Shown one piece after another: positions 2,761-46,435 of a DNA stretch of 64,000 bases; the stretch's first letter is position 1; the number at the start of each line of letters is the position of its first letter. The stretch spans positions 448,001-512,000 of the IMG/VR virus record IMGVR_UViG_3300037484_000435. One strand, 5' to 3'. The stretch is from a virus. Taxonomy: Duplodnaviria; Caudoviricetes. The translations under genes and the position numbers were made by a program. The notes under the pieces are model-generated. The model searched no databases and was not told the DNA's origin. It saw only the letters and a list, made by a program, of their open reading frames with translations.

Positions 2761-2869
2761 TTTTTCATTAGAGTATTTACTTAGGGCCAGTCCATTTTAT
2801 AACTCCTTTCGTTTATGCGTAAACGGTGGGACTACCCACCTACCAAATCAAAAGGTAAAGATCCTAATA

Positions 2870-2925
2870 CTTATCATTTGTACTATAAATCCATTGGGTT
2901 AGAGGGTACTAACCAAAGGATTGTA
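2870..2925. promoter_or_regulatory. Repeated hairpin element copy B
   Basis: tactataaatcc-att-g-ggttag-AGGGTA-ctaacc-aaa-ggatt. Confidence 0.55.
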
Positions 2926-3054
2926 TAGACTGCACATGGCACGCACGTAAAAAAAATAAACGCGCGTATTAAACCATTATTCCTTAAATATAACGGGTGA
3001 CACGTGCGTGCGTCACCCGTTATAGTAACACAAGCTGGGGGAGGGAGGGACCAA

Positions 3055-13107: not shown

Positions 13108-13443
13108 CTAGTCAGCCGCCATTACGAATTCCAAAGGACCCTCGTCCTCGGCAGGGGCCACATAGCCAGGAAGGAACTTGTCCAACCCATCGTGACCCGC
13201 CTTGATTGCGGCCCGCACACCACGAATGAATCCGCGATGGGTGAGCTTCCCACCCGACAACGCGATTATCACTCGCTCGATCTGGGCGGGGTCAGTCAAG
13301 GTTGTGCCCTTACCGTCCTTGGCCTTCTTGCCCTTCATCCACTCCAGATTGGGTGTGATTGCCGACTCGGTCCTGTTCCACACCCCGCCTTTTACGGAGC
13401 ACTGCCTTACCTTACCATCGTTGCGTTTCATAGTTTCCTCCAC
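13108..13443 (-). CDS. Hypothetical protein
   Basis: Co-directional ORF. Confidence 0.7.
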   Translation of the reverse strand: MEETMKRNDGKVRQCSVKGGVWNRTESAITPNLEWMKGKKAKDGKGTTLTDPAQIERVIIALSGGKLTHRGFIRGVRAAIKAGHDGLDKFLPGYVAPAEDEGPLEFVMAAD

Positions 13444-13461
13444 GCTTTTTGGTTGTGACCA

Positions 13462-14025
13462 TTAAATGGTCTGAATCCACCTTCCGAACGCCTCTCCGAG
13501 CATCTGAGTAAACTCAGACTTTGAGATGTCCAACGGAACGAAATCATTGTTGTGGTCATAAATGCAGATGGTATCGAAACCCTGCACTGTAGAGATTCTC
13601 TGTTCCAGAGCCCCGAAGACCAAACGATCTACGAACTTCTGGATGCTTCGTTTCGTTGCCCGTTGCTCGAAATCATCATAGAGTTCGTCCATCTGGTCAA
13701 CAACTTCCTCTGACACTTCAGCACGGAAGGTGTTCCACAAGGCCTCAAAGTCAATCCTCACATCTTCCGCTGGAAGCGGGAACCTTTCAGGGTCTGCTTG
13801 ATGAAGTGCCCGAAGGACTATTTCCTCATTGGATGTTGAGTCATCGAGAGTTTCCGCAACTTCCTCTATGGCATCTTTGGCCTCTTTAAGACCAATATTG
13901 CCCCTCATGCGAATCTTCTTTATCAGTTGGATTTTTCCGTCTTCTCCAGAACGGTCCTGCCATCTTATAGGCATTTTATCCTCCACTTTTTGTAAGTTTC
14001 TTTGGAAATAAGGATGGGGCGACAT
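13462..14025 (-). CDS. Protein with ribosomal L7/L12 C-terminal-like domain
   Basis: KIQLIKKIR...GLKEAKDAIE matches the L12 CTD KI.VIK.VR..TGLGLKEAK.LVE signature. Confidence 0.7.
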   Translation of the reverse strand: MSPHPYFQRNLQKVEDKMPIRWQDRSGEDGKIQLIKKIRMRGNIGLKEAKDAIEEVAETLDDSTSNEEIVLRALHQADPERFPLPAEDVRIDFEALWNTFRAEVSEEVVDQMDELYDDFEQRATKRSIQKFVDRLVFGALEQRISTVQGFDTICIYDHNNDFVPLDISKSEFTQMLGEAFGRWIQTI

Positions 14026-14050
14026 GTGGTTGCATATCGCCCGTTAGGGA

Positions 14051-14293
14051 TTAGCTGAAATTGTAGTGACTCGAATCACAATCCAGACAATCCCTAGCCC
14101 CCGACGAACAACGAATACAGGGTTTAGCACCCGTGTTATATCCGTAGCCGAGGTCATCCAAGACGTTTACGGACCTTTCTGCGAGGAACTCTTCGTCCTC
14201 GCGAATTGTCCGCTTCTCTGTCCGACGATCCACCTTTCGGCCCATCCTCAACTCCTTTCGAAAGAAAAAAGGCACACAGGTAATTACCTGCAT
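14051..14293 (-). CDS. Hypothetical protein (CxxC)
   Basis: Co-directional ORF; start uncertain. Confidence 0.5.
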   Translation of the reverse strand: MQVITCVPFFFRKELRMGRKVDRRTEKRTIREDEEFLAERSVNVLDDLGYGYNTGAKPCIRCSSGARDCLDCDSSHYNFS

Positions 14294-14311
14294 GCCTGTT
14301 GGGTTCGGGGA

Positions 14312-14875
14312 TTACCGTTTTCCAAAAGAGGTTCCAAGGTTTTCCTTCAGGAGGGCACCGAGGCTGGAAGCGGGTTGCTCCTCTTCTTCGGTGTACGGAA
14401 CAGGATTATCTGGGCACTGACAACAATGGTCGTCATACCCAAAATTGTCCTTATACTTCCTGCACACCGTCTGGCAATACTCCTCCTGTTCCTCTTTGGT
14501 CACCTCGTGGCGATTGAAGACCACTTTAGAGCCTGAGATATTGATGTCGTTACTTGTCAGACGACGCCCATCAATAGACCAAGCCTCTATCTCGATCTTC
14601 ACCCTGCAACACGAACTGTGAATCAGTGCTCGAAAGTCTGGATGGTCCACGATCTTTCTCCACAAATAATCGATGTCTGTAGCAGACATAGGTATTGTGA
14701 GTCGATCGTTGGTTATGATGGTAACCAAATAGACCTTCCACGCTTCCGACTCCCAGCGGGCGGGCCTGATGAAGGTCCAAACCGCAATGGCCATTGCTGT
14801 GGTGTAATCGATCCAATTCCGGATCTGACCATCAACCACAAAAAGAGTTTCCTTGGTTTCTCGGTTGTTTGACAT
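14312..14875 (-). CDS. Hypothetical protein
   Basis: GGAGG RBS; first gene downstream of hairpin elements E-G. Confidence 0.75.
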   Translation of the reverse strand: MSNNRETKETLFVVDGQIRNWIDYTTAMAIAVWTFIRPARWESEAWKVYLVTIITNDRLTIPMSATDIDYLWRKIVDHPDFRALIHSSCCRVKIEIEAWSIDGRRLTSNDINISGSKVVFNRHEVTKEEQEEYCQTVCRKYKDNFGYDDHCCQCPDNPVPYTEEEEQPASSLGALLKENLGTSFGKR

Positions 14876-14922
14876 GATCGACCTCCGCTCTTTTGGTTGG
14901 CGTGCGATGCACGCAGGCTATC

Positions 14923-14985
14923 TTTTATAACCCATTTATCATTTAATATACCTTGGGAAAGAGGGTACTTTCCTTTAAGGTAAAT
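14923..14985. promoter_or_regulatory. Repeated hairpin element copy E
   Basis: ttttataaccc...tttaatatacctt-g-ggaaag-AGGGTA-ctttcc-ttt-aaggta. Confidence 0.6.
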
Positions 14986-15023
14986 TAGAAAAACATGTGA
15001 GTAGGTGTATGTAAAATTTTTTA

Positions 15024-16204
15024 ACTAACTTAGTTTTTAGAGTAAGAAGTTAAAAATTTTAATGATGAGGTGATCTCAATTTGTTAACCTACAAATTCAG
15101 AATGTATCCAACAAAAATACAACAGGCAAAGCTCTGGAAACATGCAAATTTGTTGAATCGGCTTTACAATTACTTCCTAAAACAACGTTTAGAAGCATTT
15201 GAAAAGAATGAGCCAAGAATTTATCGCTATCAGCAACAGGCTGAATTGGTTCAATTAAAAAAGGATATCCCAGAGATTAAAGAGATCCATGCTCAAGTTT
15301 TACAACAAGTTCCGTTAAGATTGGATAATGCTTATACCGCGTTTCTTAAGAGAATCAAATTAAAACAAGGAAAGCCTTGCTATAGGAGTTGCCACAATTT
15401 CTTTGGAATTACTTATCCTCAGAGCGGGTACAAAATAACTAAAACAAGTCTCTGCACAAAAGCATATGGAAAAATAAAACTTTTCCAGCACCGAGGAGTT
15501 ATTGGAGAAATAAAACAAATCAAAATAATTTGCAAAAATGAGAAGTGGTTCGTATGTGTAACAACTGACCACAGGTTACCAACTTCTACCTCTGGGTCTA
15601 GAATGATTGGTTTAGATTTAGGTATTGCTAACTTGGTAGCAACCTCCGAAGGGGAAATTATACCCAATAGAAGTCACGCACGTTACTTTAATAAACAAAT
15701 CAACAAACTGAGATCACATCAGGATAAAAAATGCAAAAAAAACTCAAGGAGGCATAAATTTCTTTCTAGGTCTATTAGTAAGTTGTATGGTGCAAAAGTT
15801 AGAAAAACAAATGATTTTTTGCACAAGGTGTCTAGACGCCTAACCCTAAAATATGATACAATTGTTATTGAAGACCTTACACTGAAGAAGATGTCGGAAT
15901 CTAATATTAGAGGGTTAAACCGCGAATTGCGGAACAGTTGCTTAGCACGATTTATATATTACTTAAGTTACAAAGCCGAACGTTTAATAAAGGTTAATCC
16001 TATGAATACTTCCAAGATGTGTAATCGTTGTGGCCGTATTCATGATATGCCTTTATCAAAACGTACATTGGTTTGTGAGTGTGGAAATGTTGTAGATCGA
16101 GATGTTAATGCAGCTCAAAACATACTTTGCTTGGGACGAGCCTATTTATTAAATTTAATAGATAGTACTGCGATACTAACGCAGGAAGTGCTTGCACAGT
16201 TCAC
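15024..16204 (+). mobile_element. Non-autonomous IS200/IS605-family element (TnpB only)
   Basis: Right end ...CAGTTCAC at 16204; excision re-forms TTTTA^TAACCC, the 5' box of the hairpin repeat family, which fixes the left junction at 15023/15024. Confidence 0.7.
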
Positions 16205-16244
16205 TAACCCTTCTTTCATGAAATATAACCTTAAAGTAGGGTAA
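15081..16244 (+). CDS. tnpB: TnpB RNA-guided endonuclease
   Basis: N-terminal HTH (YKFRMYPT..Q), RuvC GLDLG / IEDL / DRDVNAA, C-terminal CxxC-CxC zinc ribbon. Confidence 0.95.
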   Translation: MLTYKFRMYPTKIQQAKLWKHANLLNRLYNYFLKQRLEAFEKNEPRIYRYQQQAELVQLKKDIPEIKEIHAQVLQQVPLRLDNAYTAFLKRIKLKQGKPCYRSCHNFFGITYPQSGYKITKTSLCTKAYGKIKLFQHRGVIGEIKQIKIICKNEKWFVCVTTDHRLPTSTSGSRMIGLDLGIANLVATSEGEIIPNRSHARYFNKQINKLRSHQDKKCKKNSRRHKFLSRSISKLYGAKVRKTNDFLHKVSRRLTLKYDTIVIEDLTLKKMSESNIRGLNRELRNSCLARFIYYLSYKAERLIKVNPMNTSKMCNRCGRIHDMPLSKRTLVCECGNVVDRDVNAAQNILCLGRAYLLNLIDSTAILTQEVLAQFTNPSFMKYNLKVG

Positions 16245-16266
16245 GAGGGTACCCTAATTGAAGGAT
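16205..16266. promoter_or_regulatory. Repeated hairpin element copy F (split by the TnpB element)
   Basis: taaccc...aaatataacctt-aaag-tagggta-AGAGGG-tacccta-attg-aagg. Confidence 0.6.
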
Positions 16267-16305
16267 ATATAGAAGAGGTAGGTAAGCATACACGTACATG
16301 CCCAT

Positions 16306-16366
16306 TTTTATAACCCTTCAGTCTTTGAATATACTTCTGGGTTAGAGGGTCTAACTTGAAGGTACA
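16306..16366. promoter_or_regulatory. Repeated hairpin element copy G
   Basis: ttttataaccc...tttgaatatacttc-tgg-gttag-AGGGT-ctaac-tt-gaaggta. Confidence 0.6.
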
Positions 16367-16452
16367 TTGACTTTTGTATTGTCTTAGTCTTTGTTTGATT
16401 GATTAGGCATATAAGCCCCTACATGAGGGACTTATACACCTTTAGCTGGATT

Positions 16453-16623
16453 CTATGTCCGAATTGTCTTTTCGGGATAGAGGGAAATCTCCCATTGAAT
16501 AGCAAGAATTTGATTGGAGCGACTACCGATGTTGTGGCGACTCACAACTTCAAGACCCAGATCGCCATAATCACCACCAGTCTGCATCAACGAGGTGTGA
16601 ACAAAAAGCCAGAGATAAGTCAT
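16453..16623 (-). CDS. Small hypothetical protein (56 aa, not in track)
   Basis: ATGA overlap with the upstream stop; fills the gap. Confidence 0.45.
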   Translation of the reverse strand: MTYLWLFVHTSLMQTGGDYGDLGLEVVSRHNIGSRSNQILAIQWEISLYPEKTIRT

Positions 16624-16802
16624 TTGGATTCCTCCTGTTTACGAGCATGGAGCAGACATGCAAGAGTTTGTTCTGCATTTGAATAAGCCATTTGTAACCA
16701 AACCTTGGTTTTCTCGTTACTATATTCTCCCTGAGCCTTTTCTACATCTCGTCGAAGCATTTCCGCATCTTCAATAAGGTCAAGTAGGGGAGTTACACTC
16801 AT
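16620..16802 (-). CDS. Hypothetical protein
   Basis: Packed operon ORF. Confidence 0.65.
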   Translation of the reverse strand: MSVTPLLDLIEDAEMLRRDVEKAQGEYSNEKTKVWLQMAYSNAEQTLACLLHARKQEESK

Positions 16803-17296
16803 GGAGCTTTCCTTTCTCGTTTTTGTAGATTACTTCTAATTTTTGTCAACCGAGAACAAAACTCTTGAGTAGTGAGTATTGTTTGTCGAGGGTCGTTTTT
16901 GCCGATGGTGTGAGTAAGAACTGCATCTCGTGATGCTAAGAGGGCACGTCGGGCGGAATCATTCTGAATGAACATTGCATTGTAAGCACGATCCAACAGC
17001 TCTTGGTATTCTTTTGAGAACCTATCGATTTCTTTCCCACGCCACCATATCTTTCCGTCTCTTTGCCACTTCTTGCCCTTACCCTTGAACTTAGCCTTTC
17101 TCCCCACCAGACGGCAAACTTCTATCTGCATATCAGGATTGGAGAACTTCAAACTTTGTAAGAAGCCTTCCATCGATGCTATGTTTATGCCGTCCAGAAC
17201 GAAAGGATGTGGGGAAAAGTTTGATAAGGCATCCGCTGGGCAGGCTTTTCCGCTTCCTATATCCATAACTATCACCTCGAAAGTTTTCTCCTCCAC
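16799..17296 (-). CDS. T4 gp30.3-like NADAR-family protein
   Basis: LSNFSPHPFVLDG...SMEGFLQSLK...W..G..I.R.S..YQ.LL..AY...QN...LL.S pattern of the phage 30.3/NADAR fold. Confidence 0.8.
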   Translation of the reverse strand: MEEKTFEVIVMDIGSGKACPADALSNFSPHPFVLDGINIASMEGFLQSLKFSNPDMQIEVCRLVGRKAKFKGKGKKWQRDGKIWWRGKEIDRFSKEYQELLDRAYNAMFIQNDSARRALLASRDAVLTHTIGKNDPRQTILTTQEFCSRLTKIRSNLQKRERKAP

Positions 17297-17481
17297 AATG
17301 ATGACTGAAGGCTGTTGTCGCTCCTTTCATGCTGGCGCATCCCCTCTACCAAGATTTCATATTGACCCTCACTAGGCCAAGAAGGTTTCCAAGATAAAGG
17401 TGGAATAAAATTAGTCACGAATTCCCACCCAGCATTTTCCAAAGTTTGTATTTCTTTTGATGATAGAATCATTCCTCTCAT
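17272..17481 (-). CDS. Hypothetical protein
   Basis: Packed operon ORF. Confidence 0.55.
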   Translation of the reverse strand: MRGMILSSKEIQTLENAGWEFVTNFIPPLSWKPSWPSEGQYEILVEGMRQHERSDNSLQSSLWRRKLSR

Positions 17482-17520
17482 CCTTACCTCCCCTTTAAGA
17501 TTTTTTTATTCCCCGCCCGC

Positions 17521-17760
17521 TTAATCACAGGGTATGTGTGTTATTGAGACAGCATATGGAGTTGTCAGCATCGCATAACATTTACCATCCTTCTTCACGT
17601 AACGAATTCTATTGGTGAGTTGTTCTGTTGGTGATCGTGTCTCTACAGGAACTTGATGAGTAACAGCAAAGTAAACGACTGAAGAGTAGAATACAAACGC
17701 CATCAGAACGACAATCACAATATCTTTTGTAGTCCCACGGACTAACATCCGTTGCCTCAC
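17521..17760 (-). CDS. Single-pass membrane protein
   Basis: N-terminal TM helix. Confidence 0.65.
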   Translation of the reverse strand: MRQRMLVRGTTKDIVIVVLMAFVFYSSVVYFAVTHQVPVETRSPTEQLTNRIRYVKKDGKCYAMLTTPYAVSITHIPCD

Positions 17761-17975
17761 GTACTTCCTCCTGTTACTGGTGTGGGTTTAGGGTCTTTCT
17801 TGGCGGGATTATACCACCCCTCGGGATTTCCCTTCAACAGGAACGTACACCCGCTAATTATTCTGTATGCGGTATTCCCGCATTTACATGGAATTTTCTC
17901 TTCAGCGTCTTTCATCGAAATAAACACTTCTGTTTTTTCGTTGCATACTGAACAATAATACTCGTAAATTGGCAC
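17757..17975 (-). CDS. FmdB-family zinc-ribbon protein
   Basis: MPIYEYYCxxC...CxCG...F.LKG...GWY signature. Confidence 0.85.
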   Translation of the reverse strand: MPIYEYYCSVCNEKTEVFISMKDAEEKIPCKCGNTAYRIISGCTFLLKGNPEGWYNPAKKDPKPTPVTGGST

Positions 17976-18003
17976 ACTTATCCTCCTATTCTCATTTAAT
18001 ACT

Positions 18004-33995: not shown

Positions 33996-35105
33996 ATGAA
34001 ATTAACCGTCCCTCTAAAGCTACTAACCGATGGAACTCAATCTAAAATCCTTCACGATACTATTCTGGAGGCTAATAGGGTAAGTAATTTAATCGCGTCT
34101 ATTGCTTGGGAACGGCATACAGTAGGTAAGATTGCTCTACAAAAATTAGTTTACCATGATCTACGTAACAAAACTACTCTGTCATCACAAATGTTAATTC
34201 ATGCGATTCATAAAGTTGCTGATGCTTATCGGATTAACAAAAAGGTTGTTCCCCAGTTTAACCCCAAAGGTTCTATTGCTTATGATGCACGGATACTTAC
34301 CGTTCGGAATGAAAAACAATACATCACAATATGGACAACATTGGGACGCATCAAAGTTGCTTACACGTCAGGCACTAAACAGCTTAAGTTATTAAATCAA
34401 ACTATCAAGATTGGGGAATGTGACCTCATCTTGAGAAATAACCGATGGTACCTACATTGCTCTCTAGAAGTTCCTGAGAAGCACCATCAAAAACCCCAAG
34501 GCATGTTGGGAGTCGATCTCGGAATTAAGAATATTGCGGTAACTTCCGACAATAAGGTTTATTGTGGTGCCCAACTTAACAGTTTACGTAAACGCCACTG
34601 CCGTTTGCGTGCTAAATTGCAATCGAAGGGAACCCGTTCCGCAAAACGGTTGCTACGTAAACGTAGTAAACGTGAATCTCGGATGGCGCGCAACGCTAAT
34701 CACATAATCTCCAAACGTATTGTTGCCACGGCTAAATGCACGAAGCGTAGTATTGCCCTTGAAAATCTTAAAGGCATTACTAAGCGGACTAAGGTTTCTA
34801 AAGCCCAGCGTAATCAGCAACATAGTTGGAGTTTTTACCAACTTAAATCTTTCATTGAATATAAGGCCCGCCTCGTGGGTGTAGAAGTAGTTCTAGTTAA
34901 TCCTAAAAATACTAGCATCACTTGCCCTAAATGTGGCTTAATTCGAAAATCCAATCGTCGTGACCGAGATCACTTCGTTTGTAGACGTAAAGAGTGTGGT
35001 TACGCTGACCATGCTGATTACGTGGCCGCTTTAAACATCGCGTCTAAAGCGGCGGTTGTGGGGCATAGCCCTAACGTCAACCAACCCAACGTTTCGGTGG
35101 CATAA
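33996..35105 (+). CDS. tnpB: TnpB RNA-guided endonuclease
   Basis: RuvC GVDLG / ALENL / ADYVAALN, CPKC...C zinc finger. Confidence 0.95.
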   Translation: MKLTVPLKLLTDGTQSKILHDTILEANRVSNLIASIAWERHTVGKIALQKLVYHDLRNKTTLSSQMLIHAIHKVADAYRINKKVVPQFNPKGSIAYDARILTVRNEKQYITIWTTLGRIKVAYTSGTKQLKLLNQTIKIGECDLILRNNRWYLHCSLEVPEKHHQKPQGMLGVDLGIKNIAVTSDNKVYCGAQLNSLRKRHCRLRAKLQSKGTRSAKRLLRKRSKRESRMARNANHIISKRIVATAKCTKRSIALENLKGITKRTKVSKAQRNQQHSWSFYQLKSFIEYKARLVGVEVVLVNPKNTSITCPKCGLIRKSNRRDRDHFVCRRKECGYADHADYVAALNIASKAAVVGHSPNVNQPNVSVA

Positions 35106-45349: not shown

Positions 45350-46435
45350 ATGATTGTGAAACATGCCTATAAATATCACATATACCCTAATACTGACCAA
45401 AAGAAACAACTTGAATCTTACTTTGGATGTTCTAGGTATGTCTATAATCATTATTTAAAACAAAGAATTGATTGCTATATGTTGCACAAAGTCGGTCTCG
45501 GGTATGTGGACAACTGTAGTGACCTAGTATTTCTAAAGAGACAAAAGCCTTGGTTGTCTGAAGCCATCGCTCAGTCATTACAGGCATCACTCAAGGATCT
45601 TGAATCAGCTTACACTAATTTTTTTAGAGGGACCACAAAATTTCCGAGTTTCAAGAAAAAACACAACAAACAAAGTTTTCGTGTTCCCCAAAAATTCAAG
45701 GTCAATTCCACTTCAATTACTATCCCTAAGGTGGGCAAGATCAAAGCCAAAATACATCGTCCAATAGGAGACAAGATCTGCAATGTTACTATTAGTAAAA
45801 CTCCTGCAGGAAAGTATTATGCTTCTGTGTTATGTGAAGTTTATATTGAGGATCCAAAATTTGAAGGCAATATAATCGGGATCGATTTGGGGATTAGAGA
45901 TTATTTGGTTGACAGTAATGGGAATCGCGTCCCTAACCCGAAATATCTTCAAAAGTCCTTAGTGAAGCTTAAACGACTCCAACAAATACTAAGTAGCAAA
46001 GTTCAAGGTTCTAGTGATTACCATAAATTACGGCGTAAGCTTGCGAAACTACACGAAAAGATTCAGAACCAACGTTCAGATTTTCAGCATAAACTTGCTT
46101 TACAACTGGTGCGTGAAAACCAAACCATCTGTTGTGAAACTTTAGCTGTAAAGAGGATGTTGACTGAGTCTGATCCAGTGCTAGCCAGATACATTTTAGA
46201 TGCAGGATGGTACCAGTTCATTTCTTTTTTGAATTACAAAGGACCTTGGTATGGTTGCCACATAAATCAAATAGAGCAGTTTTATCCTAGCAGTAAACGG
46301 CATTTCGAATGTGGTTATATTAATGAACATCTAAACCTTTCTGATAGAGAGTGGTTATGCCCACAATGTAACTCGATGGTTGATAGAGACCTTAATGCTG
46401 CTAAAAATATTCTCGCCGCGGGGACCGCGGTTTAA
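45350..46435 (+). CDS. tnpB: TnpB RNA-guided endonuclease
   Basis: HTH AYKY.IYP...Q, RuvC GIDLG / CETL / DRDLNAAKNI, zinc finger; probable right end TAGTCCAC at 46482. Confidence 0.95.
   Translation: MIVKHAYKYHIYPNTDQKKQLESYFGCSRYVYNHYLKQRIDCYMLHKVGLGYVDNCSDLVFLKRQKPWLSEAIAQSLQASLKDLESAYTNFFRGTTKFPSFKKKHNKQSFRVPQKFKVNSTSITIPKVGKIKAKIHRPIGDKICNVTISKTPAGKYYASVLCEVYIEDPKFEGNIIGIDLGIRDYLVDSNGNRVPNPKYLQKSLVKLKRLQQILSSKVQGSSDYHKLRRKLAKLHEKIQNQRSDFQHKLALQLVRENQTICCETLAVKRMLTESDPVLARYILDAGWYQFISFLNYKGPWYGCHINQIEQFYPSSKRHFECGYINEHLNLSDREWLCPQCNSMVDRDLNAAKNILAAGTAV

What the first reader, a model, noticed from the sequence alone, without database searches (positions are those of the whole stretch)
15017..16333. 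TnpB inserted inside a repeated promoter-like element, so its guide matches the sibling copies
Seen: removing 15024-16204 rejoins TTTTA^TAACCC, the exact 5' box of the hairpin repeat family. The TnpB guide (3' flank from 16205, TAACCCTTCTTTCATGAAAT) therefore is promoter sequence. Copy G, 100 bp away (16306-16330), offers the same TTTTA upstream motif plus a perfect 9-nt seed and 15/20 identity; copy E offers TTTTA plus 6 nt. All three RuvC acidic residues are present. Established: TnpB guides come from the right flank and the TAM equals the left-flank motif; short seed pairing can give binding without cutting, and TnpB-derived repressors (TldR) exist. Inference: this TnpB could act as an RNA-guided regulator of the phage's own promoter family, or cut related promoters in co-infecting phages.
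Basis: partly seen in the sequence, partly recalled or inferred. Interest (0 to 1): 0.78.

Follow-up and report, generated by a model that had tools for sequence, protein, structure and literature searches.

The report
Transposase-less TnpB in phage repeat array
A 545-kb sediment phage carries an intact RNA-guided nuclease gene (TnpB) without a transposase, wedged exactly between two units of a repeated promoter-like element; its guide RNA therefore reads the repeat, but this looks like an ordinary selfish homing element and not a new gene regulator.

Summary
The sequence observations hold. A 1.18-kb, low-GC IS200/IS605-type element (window about 15025-16204) encodes a full-length TnpB with the RuvC triad (D179/E264/D341) and a zinc finger.

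Nineteen relatives fix the right end at 16204: all end in AGTTCA(C/T/A) and then diverge. The guide therefore starts at 16205 (TAACCCTTCTTTCATG), which is the core of one unit of a real promoter-like/hairpin repeat family. Unit G shares 9 contiguous nt (15/20) and unit E shares 6.

- The left-flank motif in 11 relatives is (T/A/G)TTAA, once TTTAT. This matches the characterised IS605-type SisTnpB7 (TAM TTTAA/NTTAA, reRNA ending UUCAC).
- In SisTnpB7, TTTTA-type TAMs are weak, 13-14 bp of pairing is needed, and weak TAMs tolerate no mismatch. The sibling units should therefore not be cut.
- The nuclease is not TldR-like.
- The element has lost both TnpA-binding hairpins, and the phage has no Y1 transposase.

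Most likely this is a fixed or homing TnpB aimed at the insert-free allele. One contig from a related phage lacks the TnpB and one repeat unit. This scan has reported similar transposase-less phage TnpBs on other DNA.

The parts
14923..14985 (+). Repeat unit E (unit 1): box TTTTATAACCC, a -10-like AATATAC, a hairpin GGAAAG/CTTTCC with a G-rich loop, then AAGG
   Evidence: it is co-oriented with tnpB and lies about 100 nt upstream of it
14986..15019 (+). Spacer of unit 1, homologous to the spacer at 16269-16305
   Evidence: spacers z 2.2; whole units z 7.6
15020..15024 (+).
   Evidence: The left flanks of 11 relatives are 8x TTTAA, ATTAA, GTTAA and TTTAT. SisTnpB7 has TAM TTTAA/NTTAA. The documented IS605 target is TTTAA or TTAAC.
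15025..15080 (+). Left-end remnant (56 nt). It carries no TnpA-type hairpin. A GAGGTGAT Shine-Dalgarno sequence lies 7 nt before the TTG start.
   Evidence: A left-end profile from relatives has no hit here; sequence read
15081..16244 (+). tnpB ORF (387 aa). D179 is at 15615-15617, E264 at 15870-15872, D341 at 16101-16103. The last 13 codons and the stop lie in flanking repeat DNA.
16129..16204 (+). Conserved 3' part of the omega-RNA (reRNA) scaffold: stem A 16129-16141, stem B 16142-16165, stem C 16168-16184, mini-hairpin GUG-CUUG-CAC 16188-16197, terminal AGUUCAC 16198-16204. The 5' limit of the RNA was not determined.
   Evidence: RNAalifold on 18 sequences: 22 pairs, 13 with compensatory changes.
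16205..16220 (+). Predicted 16-nt guide / protospacer, TAACCCTTCTTTCATG. This is the core box of repeat unit F.
   Evidence: The right end is fixed by relatives. The guide starts right after UUCAC in SisTnpB7. The guide is about 16 nt in ISDra2.
16205..16268 (+). Repeat unit F (unit 2, the interrupted copy): TAACCC, AATATAAC, a hairpin TAGGGTA/TACCCTA, then GAAGG
16306..16368 (+). Repeat unit G (unit 3): TTTTA + TAACCCTTC (9-nt match to the guide), then a hairpin and GAAGG

Best explanation
This is a tnpB-only (IS1341-like) member of the IS200/IS605 family. It landed at a TTTAA target at the boundary between two units of a tandem promoter-like/hairpin repeat in a 545-kb phage.

How it most likely works:
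- It is probably transcribed from the upstream unit.
- TnpB processes the 3' end of its own transcript into an omega-RNA. The scaffold of that RNA ends in UUCAC at 16204, and its roughly 16-nt guide is the adjoining repeat core (TAACCCTTCTTTCATG).
- The ribonucleoprotein cannot cut its own locus, because TTCAC occupies the TAM position there.
- It can cut the insert-free allele (TTTAA + guide match) in sister or co-infecting phage genomes. Recombinational repair from the occupied copy then restores or spreads the element. This is TnpA-independent, 'non-restorative' homing; it may also simply damage competitors.
- Both TnpA-binding hairpins are gone and the phage has no Y1 transposase, so classical peel-and-paste transposition is no longer possible.
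- The partial matches to sibling units are a by-product of inserting into a repeat and have no function.

Shown here: the element's identity, its right end, the intact motifs, the conserved RNA stems, the loss of both hairpins, and the absence of tnpA.
Inferred: the exact TAM, nuclease activity, homing, and the promoter function of the repeat.
For: - Domains and catalytic triad are present, and all 50 invariant family columns are kept.
- The right end is defined by 19 independent insertions.
- Three omega-RNA stems are conserved with compensatory changes, and the window keeps them.
- The left-flank motif NTTAA occurs in 10 of 11 relatives. It matches the experimentally defined TAM of SisTnpB7, whose reRNA likewise ends in UUCAC and which does not cut TTCAC-flanked targets.
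- The documented IS605 target is TTTAA or TTAAC, and TnpA-independent homing into co-infecting phages or plasmids has been described.
- The genome has no Y1_Tnp, and the left-end hairpin profile has no hit in the window. The right-end hairpin is reduced to 3 bp by a 13-nt deletion.
- The three closest homologues (63-74% identity, P0003 and P0004 in phage-like contigs) lose the family's C-terminal AFRQG motif at the same point. This suggests a persisting lineage without the hairpin and argues against fresh decay.
- The genome has no second site matching 12 nt or more of the guide.
- One contig from a roughly 90%-identical relative joins unit E through a spacer-2-like stretch to the unit-G box, without the TnpB or unit F (tables 5c and 8).
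Against: - There are no activity or RNA data.
- No exact insert-free allele was recovered. The bridging contig lacks a whole repeat unit, is a single contig at 2.5x depth, and has a short right side.
- The shortened terminal hairpin next to the guide might impair the omega-RNA.
- The ORF has lost its own stop codon and reads 13 codons into the flank.
- The TAM assignment rests on relatives' flanks plus analogy with SisTnpB7, whose relatedness to this protein I did not measure. TTAAC and TTTA remain possible.
- The element is single-copy in this genome.
Confidence: 0.6

Rival explanations
1. Passive cargo. The TnpB is an inactive or irrelevant hitch-hiker that is gained and lost together with a repeat unit, through recombination between the repeated promoter/hairpin units. 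This is how PeSL motifs shuffle cassettes in T4-like phages. The guide equals the repeat only because the repeat travels with the element.
For: - A contig from a relative goes from unit E to unit G with one unit and the TnpB missing.
- In a near-identical strain, the unit upstream of spacer 2 has a different hairpin (loose end of X2), which shows rapid unit-level exchange.
- Both transposon hairpins are lost and there is no tnpA.
- PeSL-mediated indels are documented.
Against: - The ORF is full length with every invariant residue.
- The omega-RNA stems are kept through compensatory changes.
- A diverged sub-lineage with the same shortened right end still has intact ORFs, which argues for selection on TnpB itself.
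Confidence: 0.2
2. Competitor-killing nuclease. The TnpB cuts guide-matching repeat units of related, co-infecting phages and so excludes them, without necessarily copying itself.
For: The evidence is the same as for the best explanation. In addition, phage homing endonucleases are known to confer such exclusion.
Against: It needs relatives that carry the cognate TAM plus at least about 13 bp of match, and none was recovered. Sequence alone cannot distinguish it from homing.
Confidence: 0.1
3. The TnpB-omega-RNA complex binds, without cutting, the sibling units G (TTTTA + 9 nt) and E (TTTTA + 6 nt), and so represses or tunes the phage's own repeat-borne promoters in a TldR-like way.
For: - TldRs show a seed of about 6 nt in ChIP, and some use 9-11-nt guides.
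- A -2 A-to-T TAM change keeps about 40% activity in SisTnpB7.
- Unit G lies only 100 bp downstream.
Against: - The RuvC triad and the C-terminal zinc finger are intact, unlike in TldRs.
- The siblings lack the cognate TAM.
- Only one of the six genomic TAACCCTTC sites has a T-rich flank.
- Most other family copies diverge already inside the first 6-9 nt.
- Promoter function of the family is itself untested, and most copies are not followed by ORFs.
- Matching the siblings is an automatic consequence of inserting into a repeat.
Confidence: 0.06

Closest known systems
IS605-type TnpB7 of Sulfolobus islandicus REY15A (SisTnpB7; PMC11043419)
   Same: The transposon end and reRNA scaffold terminate in (U/T)TCAC, with the guide starting immediately after. 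The left-flank/TAM motif is TTTAA, with a free -5 position (NTTAA), as in the relatives of this element.
   Different: SisTnpB7 comes from an archaeal chromosome, not a phage. Its elements are ordinary IS605 copies. I did not measure its sequence relatedness to the window's protein.
ISDra2 TnpB with its omega-RNA/reRNA (Deinococcus radiodurans; PDB 8BF8, 8EXA, 8H1J; PMC8612924)
   Same: Same domain order, the same D-E-D RuvC triad, a zinc finger, an RNA scaffold overlapping the 3' end of the gene, and a roughly 16-nt guide taken from the flank.
   Different: ISDra2 has TAM TTGAT and a tnpA partner, and keeps both end hairpins. Here there is no tnpA and no left hairpin, and the right hairpin is cut down to 3 bp.
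IS1341-type (tnpB-only) IS200/IS605 elements and TnpA-independent 'non-restorative' transposon homing (review PMC13565253)
   Same: TnpB alone, with a guide aimed at the insert-free allele. Spread into homologous DNA of co-infecting phages or plasmids has been proposed or shown to be TnpA-independent.
   Different: Here the target is one unit of a tandem repeat in a huge phage, and homing was not demonstrated.
TldR, TnpB-like nuclease-dead repressors (Wiegand et al.; bioRxiv 10.1101/2023.11.30.569447)
   Same: A TnpB-derived protein carried by phages or prophages, with a guide complementary to promoter DNA and a short seed.
   Different: TldRs have lost RuvC residues and the C-terminal ZnF/RuvC part, and they target a distinct host promoter that has a cognate TAM. 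None of this applies here.
PeSL (promoter-early stem-loop) motifs of T4-like phages (PMC2839356, PMC4122927)
   Same: Short repeated promoter-plus-stem-loop modules in variable regions, at which related phages differ by cassette indels.
   Different: The sequence is unrelated, the element order differs (here the promoter-like box precedes the hairpin), promoter activity is untested, and most copies here do not flank ORFs.

Membership tests
TnpB / IS200-IS605 OMEGA element | HTH/WED-REC-RuvC-zinc-finger domain architecture | tested here: met
   Pfam PF12323, PF01385 and PF07282 all score above their cut-offs. The protein aligns to ISDra2 TnpB over residues 5-348.
TnpB / IS200-IS605 OMEGA element | Intact RuvC D-E-D triad and CxxC...CxC zinc finger | tested here: met
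   D179, E264 and D341 lie opposite D191, E278 and D361. C317, C332 and C334 are invariant and C314 is nearly so.
TnpB / IS200-IS605 OMEGA element | Structured RNA scaffold overlapping the 3' end of the gene and ending at the right transposon end | tested here: met
   The consensus structure has 22 pairs, 13 with compensatory changes, in 18 sequences. The window keeps stems A-C and the terminal AGUUCAC.
TnpB / IS200-IS605 OMEGA element | Conserved target/TAM motif abutting the left end | tested here: met
   TTTAA lies at 15020-15024, and relatives have NTTAA in 10 of 11 cases. Where exactly the TAM ends (TTTA, TTTAA or TTAAC) is not resolved.
TnpB / IS200-IS605 OMEGA element | Subterminal left- and right-end DNA hairpins for the Y1 transposase TnpA | tested here: not met
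   The left-end hairpin profile has no hit in the window. The right-end hairpin's 3' half is deleted (13 nt). This bears on mobility, not on TnpB identity.
TnpB / IS200-IS605 OMEGA element | Y1 transposase in cis or elsewhere in the genome | tested here: not met
   PF01797 has 0 matches in the 545-kb record, and the controls were positive. tnpB-only elements are a recognised subgroup.
TnpB / IS200-IS605 OMEGA element | RNA-guided, TAM-dependent DNA cleavage | not testable with these tools
   Needs a biochemical or plasmid-interference assay.
TldR (nuclease-dead TnpB-derived repressor) | Loss of RuvC catalytic residues | tested here: not met
   All three residues are present.
TldR (nuclease-dead TnpB-derived repressor) | Loss or truncation of the C-terminal ZnF/RuvC segment | tested here: not met
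   The TNB/zinc-finger domain is complete (residues 290-348). The protein is 387 aa against a family norm of 371-374.
TldR (nuclease-dead TnpB-derived repressor) | Guide complementary to a promoter elsewhere that carries the cognate TAM | tested here: not met
   The best other site is unit G, with 9 nt behind TTTTA. No site has 12 nt or more.
PeSL-like recombination modules | Repeated promoter + stem-loop motif at which related phages differ by indels | tested here: inconclusive
   The repeat family and hairpin covariation were seen. One contig from a relative lacks one unit plus the TnpB. Promoter activity and cassette exchange were not shown.

The most novel reading that the evidence does not exclude
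The TnpB-omega-RNA complex docks, without cutting, on the neighbouring repeat unit G (weak TTTTA TAM plus a 9-nt seed, 100 bp downstream) and perhaps on unit E. There it would act as an RNA-guided roadblock on the phage's own repeat-borne promoters. That would be a still-catalytic TnpB caught part-way to a TldR-like regulator, in a lineage that has already shed its transposon hairpins.
Probability: 0.06. Interest if true: 0.8.

Novelty: new member of a known kind. Interest (0 to 1): 0.35.

Why it matters
It adds a well-delimited example to the growing set of transposase-less TnpB cassettes in large phages. Here the right end, guide and probable TAM can all be read from comparative data, and both TnpA hairpins have been lost while the nuclease and guide scaffold stay intact. 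If the small sub-lineage with the shortened right end really persists without TnpA, it would be a natural case of a TnpB living purely as an RNA-guided homing endonuclease. The locus gives no real support for a new regulatory role.

Tried and rejected
- Rfam scan of 14000-17500: only two sub-threshold chance matches and no omega-RNA family.
- INPHARED phage search with 13400-18000: only short matches to the gp30.3-like gene, and no related phage covering the locus.
- Single-protein pattern scans of viral and genome contigs: nothing found. An alignment query was needed.
- The metagenome scan did not recover the three closest homologues, and their contigs have no DNA on file. Their ends could therefore be judged only from the protein tails.
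- Empty-site pattern (left flank, 0-20 nt, right flank) in viral contigs: 0 hits.
- The 20-nt guide in viral contigs: two near-identical hits inside AT-rich coding sequence of an unrelated phage, with no repeat unit and no TTTAA. This is a chance match.
- The left neighbour gene (14312-14875) has no relatives in viral contigs, so no syntenic insert-free locus was obtained.
- Sequencing runs: no RNA holder is listed. Runs X2-X4 have no contig cover over 15084-16235, which is a blank and not evidence of absence. The X1 joint 14925->16276 has a 26-nt side at 80% likeness and is probably cross-alignment of repeat boxes, so I disregarded it.
- I tried to settle the TAM register from pairing between the GAA/AAA triplets before the hairpins and the TTC/TT(T/A) triplets of the cleavage sites. 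This is compatible with both TTTAA and TTAAC, so it is not decisive.
- Reading the repeat on the minus strand as a sigma-70 promoter for gene 14875<-14312 gives a poor -35 (2 of 6). The plus-strand reading is better (9 of 12 for unit G), but the scan as a whole found fewer promoter-like sites than in shuffled sequence.
- No tRNA genes in the window.

Full report
**Context.** The window is bases 448001-512000 of a 545,322-bp IMG/VR virus record rated complete by CheckV. It was probably assembled from a sediment metagenome: run X1 holds 65% of the sampled words.

**The gene.**
- ORF 15081-16244 (+) starts at a TTG, with a GAGGTGAT Shine-Dalgarno sequence 7 nt upstream. Its N-terminus (MLTYKFRMYP) matches the family consensus.
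- Pfam finds HTH_OrfB_IS605, OrfB_IS605 and Cas12f1-like_TNB, all above their cut-offs.
- The protein aligns to ISDra2 TnpB (PDB 8BF8/8EXA/8H1J) over residues 5-348. Counting along the printed alignment puts D179, E264 and D341 opposite the catalytic D191, E278 and D361.
- All 50 invariant columns of a 34-sequence family alignment are kept, including the zinc-finger cysteines.
- GC drops from about 0.46 to about 0.34 across the element.

**Right end.**
- I collected relatives from IMG/VR (19 loci, many on 90-460-kb viral contigs) and from metagenomes.
- In 19 relatives the sequence ...AGGAAG-[covarying hairpin with TTTA loop]-T-AGTTCA(C, rarely T or A) is conserved, and similarity stops abruptly after it.
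- The window has AGTTCAC at 16198-16204, so the flank begins at 16205.
- In the IS605-type SisTnpB7, the reRNA likewise ends in a conserved UUCAC and the guide starts immediately after it (PMC11043419). In ISDra2 about 16 nt of flank serve as guide (PMC8612924).

**Omega-RNA.**
- RNAalifold on 18 sequences predicts 22 pairs, 13 of them with compensatory double changes. They form stem A (GCUUG-GGA-CAAGC), stem B and the terminal hairpin, plus GAA:UUC pairing at the hairpin's base. Stem C appears in the single-sequence folds of the window and L007 (CUGCG/CGCAG against CUGAA/UUCAG).
- The window keeps stem A (16129-16141), stem B (16142-16165) and stem C (16168-16184) with its own compensatory sequences.
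- It lacks 13 nt that form the 3' half of the terminal hairpin in all but one of the 17 aligned relatives (L018 has a smaller deletion there). What remains is GUG-CUUG-CAC (16188-16197).
- The same deletion removed the family's stop codon (the TAG within TAGTTCAC). As a result the ORF reads 13 codons into the flank.

**Left end and TAM.**
- Eleven relatives start with a conserved (T)TTAAC-CTAA, followed about 20 nt later by AGAAAT and a covarying hairpin with a TTTA loop. This is the TnpA-type left-end hairpin. Several relatives also carry a Y1 transposase or its remnant upstream.
- The five bases in the TTTAA register are TTTAA in 8 loci, then ATTAA, GTTAA and TTTAT in one each. This is the NTTAA pattern shown experimentally for SisTnpB7, and it fits the classical IS605 target 'TTTAA or TTAAC' (PMC13565253).
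- The window reads TTTTTTAAC-TAAC at 15017-15029. I therefore place the TAM at 15020-15024 and the element at 15025-16204. My estimates are about 65% for TTTAA, about 20% for TTAAC and about 15% for TTTA.
- The window's left end is only 56 nt long and has no hairpin: the left-end profile gives no hit there.
- The phage has no Y1 transposase at all, and the control genomes were positive. The element is thus a tnpB-only copy that TnpA can no longer move.

**A sub-lineage.**
- The three closest homologues (P0002-P0004) are 63-74% identical to the window's protein. P0003 and P0004 lie on contigs of short, densely packed, phage-like ORFs, and P0003 and P0004 have upstream gaps of only 70-90 nt.
- They deviate from the family's C-terminal ...QEALAFRQG at the same point as the window and then carry unrelated tails.
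- The AFRQG motif is encoded by the 3' half of the right-end hairpin. This suggests, but does not prove, that all four share the shortened right end, that their ORFs read into the flank, and that the lineage has persisted with intact genes after losing the TnpA hairpin. I could not obtain their DNA.

**The repeat.**
- The three local units (14923-, 16205-, 16306-) share four parts: a box (TTTTA)TAACCC; about 14 nt further on, AATATA(A/C)C; a hairpin whose stems differ but still pair around an AGAGGGT-type loop; and AAGG.
- A profile built from them finds further copies at genome positions 59780 (E 1.4e-6) and 514431 (E 1.4e-4), and weaker ones in window 2850-3030, at about 5330 and at about -440.
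- Unit 1 (14928-15023) aligns end to end with unit 2 (16205-16310) at z 7.6, and the spacers alone reach z 2.2. The region is therefore a three-unit tandem array, with the TnpB exactly at the boundary between units 1 and 2.
- Promoter function is untested. The plus-strand reading gives a sigma-70-like TTTATA-17-TATACT for unit G. Most copies, however, are not followed by an ORF on the same strand. The exception is unit E, which lies about 100 nt upstream of tnpB and could drive it.

**Is the 'rejoined box' meaningful?**
- Only partly. The left half (a T-run plus A) is what any insertion of this IS family shows, because it is the target motif itself.
- The informative part is that the right end abuts TAACCC, the start of a unit core, and that the sequence to the left of the element is homologous to the inter-unit spacer.

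**Sibling matches.**
- Unit G matches the guide at positions 1-9 and at 15 of 20 positions. Unit E matches 6 nt. Both have TTTTA in the TAM position.
- In SisTnpB7 a -2 A-to-T change leaves about 40% activity, the minimal duplex is 13-14 bp, and on weak TAMs any mismatch within 15 bp abolishes editing. By that yardstick neither unit would be cut.
- The genome contains no other site matching 12 nt or more of the guide. The 9-mer occurs 6 times against about 4 expected.
- TldR-like binding through a seed of about 6 nt cannot be excluded, but the protein shows none of the TldR hallmarks.

**Population data.**
- Contigs of four runs were laid on 13500-17800. In X3, a soil relative at about 90% identity, one 160-nt contig at 2.5x depth covers 14901-14983. 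It continues with 39 letters that I align by eye at about 82% to the window's spacer 2 (16266-16304), and then joins at 16305. In other words, unit E is followed directly by spacer 2 and the unit-G box, with no unit F and no TnpB. The right side of this contig is short, so the evidence is weak.
- In X2, a 151-nt contig is identical to 16276-16374 but is preceded by the tail of a unit with a different hairpin.
- These contigs show that the array varies at the level of whole units among relatives and that the TnpB is not universal. They do not supply an exact insert-free junction.

**Verdict.**
The regulator interpretation is not supported.
- The default model fits all the data: a transposase-less TnpB aimed at its own insert-free allele and behaving as a homing or retention element.
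- This scan has described comparable transposase-less phage TnpBs on other genomes, and TnpB is known to be frequent in phages.
- The modestly unusual points are the loss of both TnpA hairpins with an otherwise intact system, and insertion into a tandem repeat.

Noticed in passing
window 33996-35105 (+) and 45350-46435 (+): There are two further full-length TnpB genes, both matching Pfam OrfB_IS605 and Cas12f1-like_TNB. They are about 30% identical to the one studied. All three TnpB genes of the 545-kb genome lie in this window, and the genome has no Y1 transposase.
   Followed up: partly
window 14923-16368; genome 59716-59780 (-), 514384-514431 (-); window 2850-3030, about 5330, about -440: The promoter-like/hairpin repeat family has conserved G-rich loops and covarying stems, and one G-T wobble that favours a plus-strand RNA. 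Most copies are not followed by a same-strand ORF, so their product or role is unknown (small RNA, regulatory site, or PeSL-like recombination module).
   Followed up: partly
window 16198-16210: The transposon end plus flank reads TTCACT-AACCC, which puts a TTGACA-like hexamer (4 of 6) where the sibling units have TTTATA. The insertion may therefore not have disabled the promoter-like unit F.
   Followed up: no
window 16799-17296 (-): A T4 gp30.3-like protein (Pfam Phage_30_3, E 6.5e-54) lies just downstream of the repeat array.
   Followed up: no
window 13462-14025 (-): This 187-aa ORF has a weak match to the ribosomal protein L7/L12 C-terminal domain (Pfam PF00542, E 6.5e-7, 30 bits against a cut-off of 25.9).
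   Followed up: no
L015 and L024 (IMGVR_UViG_3300028735_000003, 353 kb): This huge phage carries two copies of a related IS605-type element with identical ends (TTTAAC-CTAAAATCAG ... AGTTCAC) at different sites. One of the two copies, L015, has roughly 500 nt between its left-end hairpin and tnpB whose sequence reads like the 3' end of a tnpA gene; the other, L024, is only a partial tnpB match. Members of this clade were therefore mobile inside phage genomes.
   Followed up: partly
relatives L006-L028, last ~25 nt of tnpB: The conserved C-terminal peptide ...QEALAFRQG of this TnpB clade is encoded by the right-end DNA hairpin / omega-RNA terminal stem. Its conservation probably reflects nucleic-acid constraints more than protein constraints.
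   Followed up: partly
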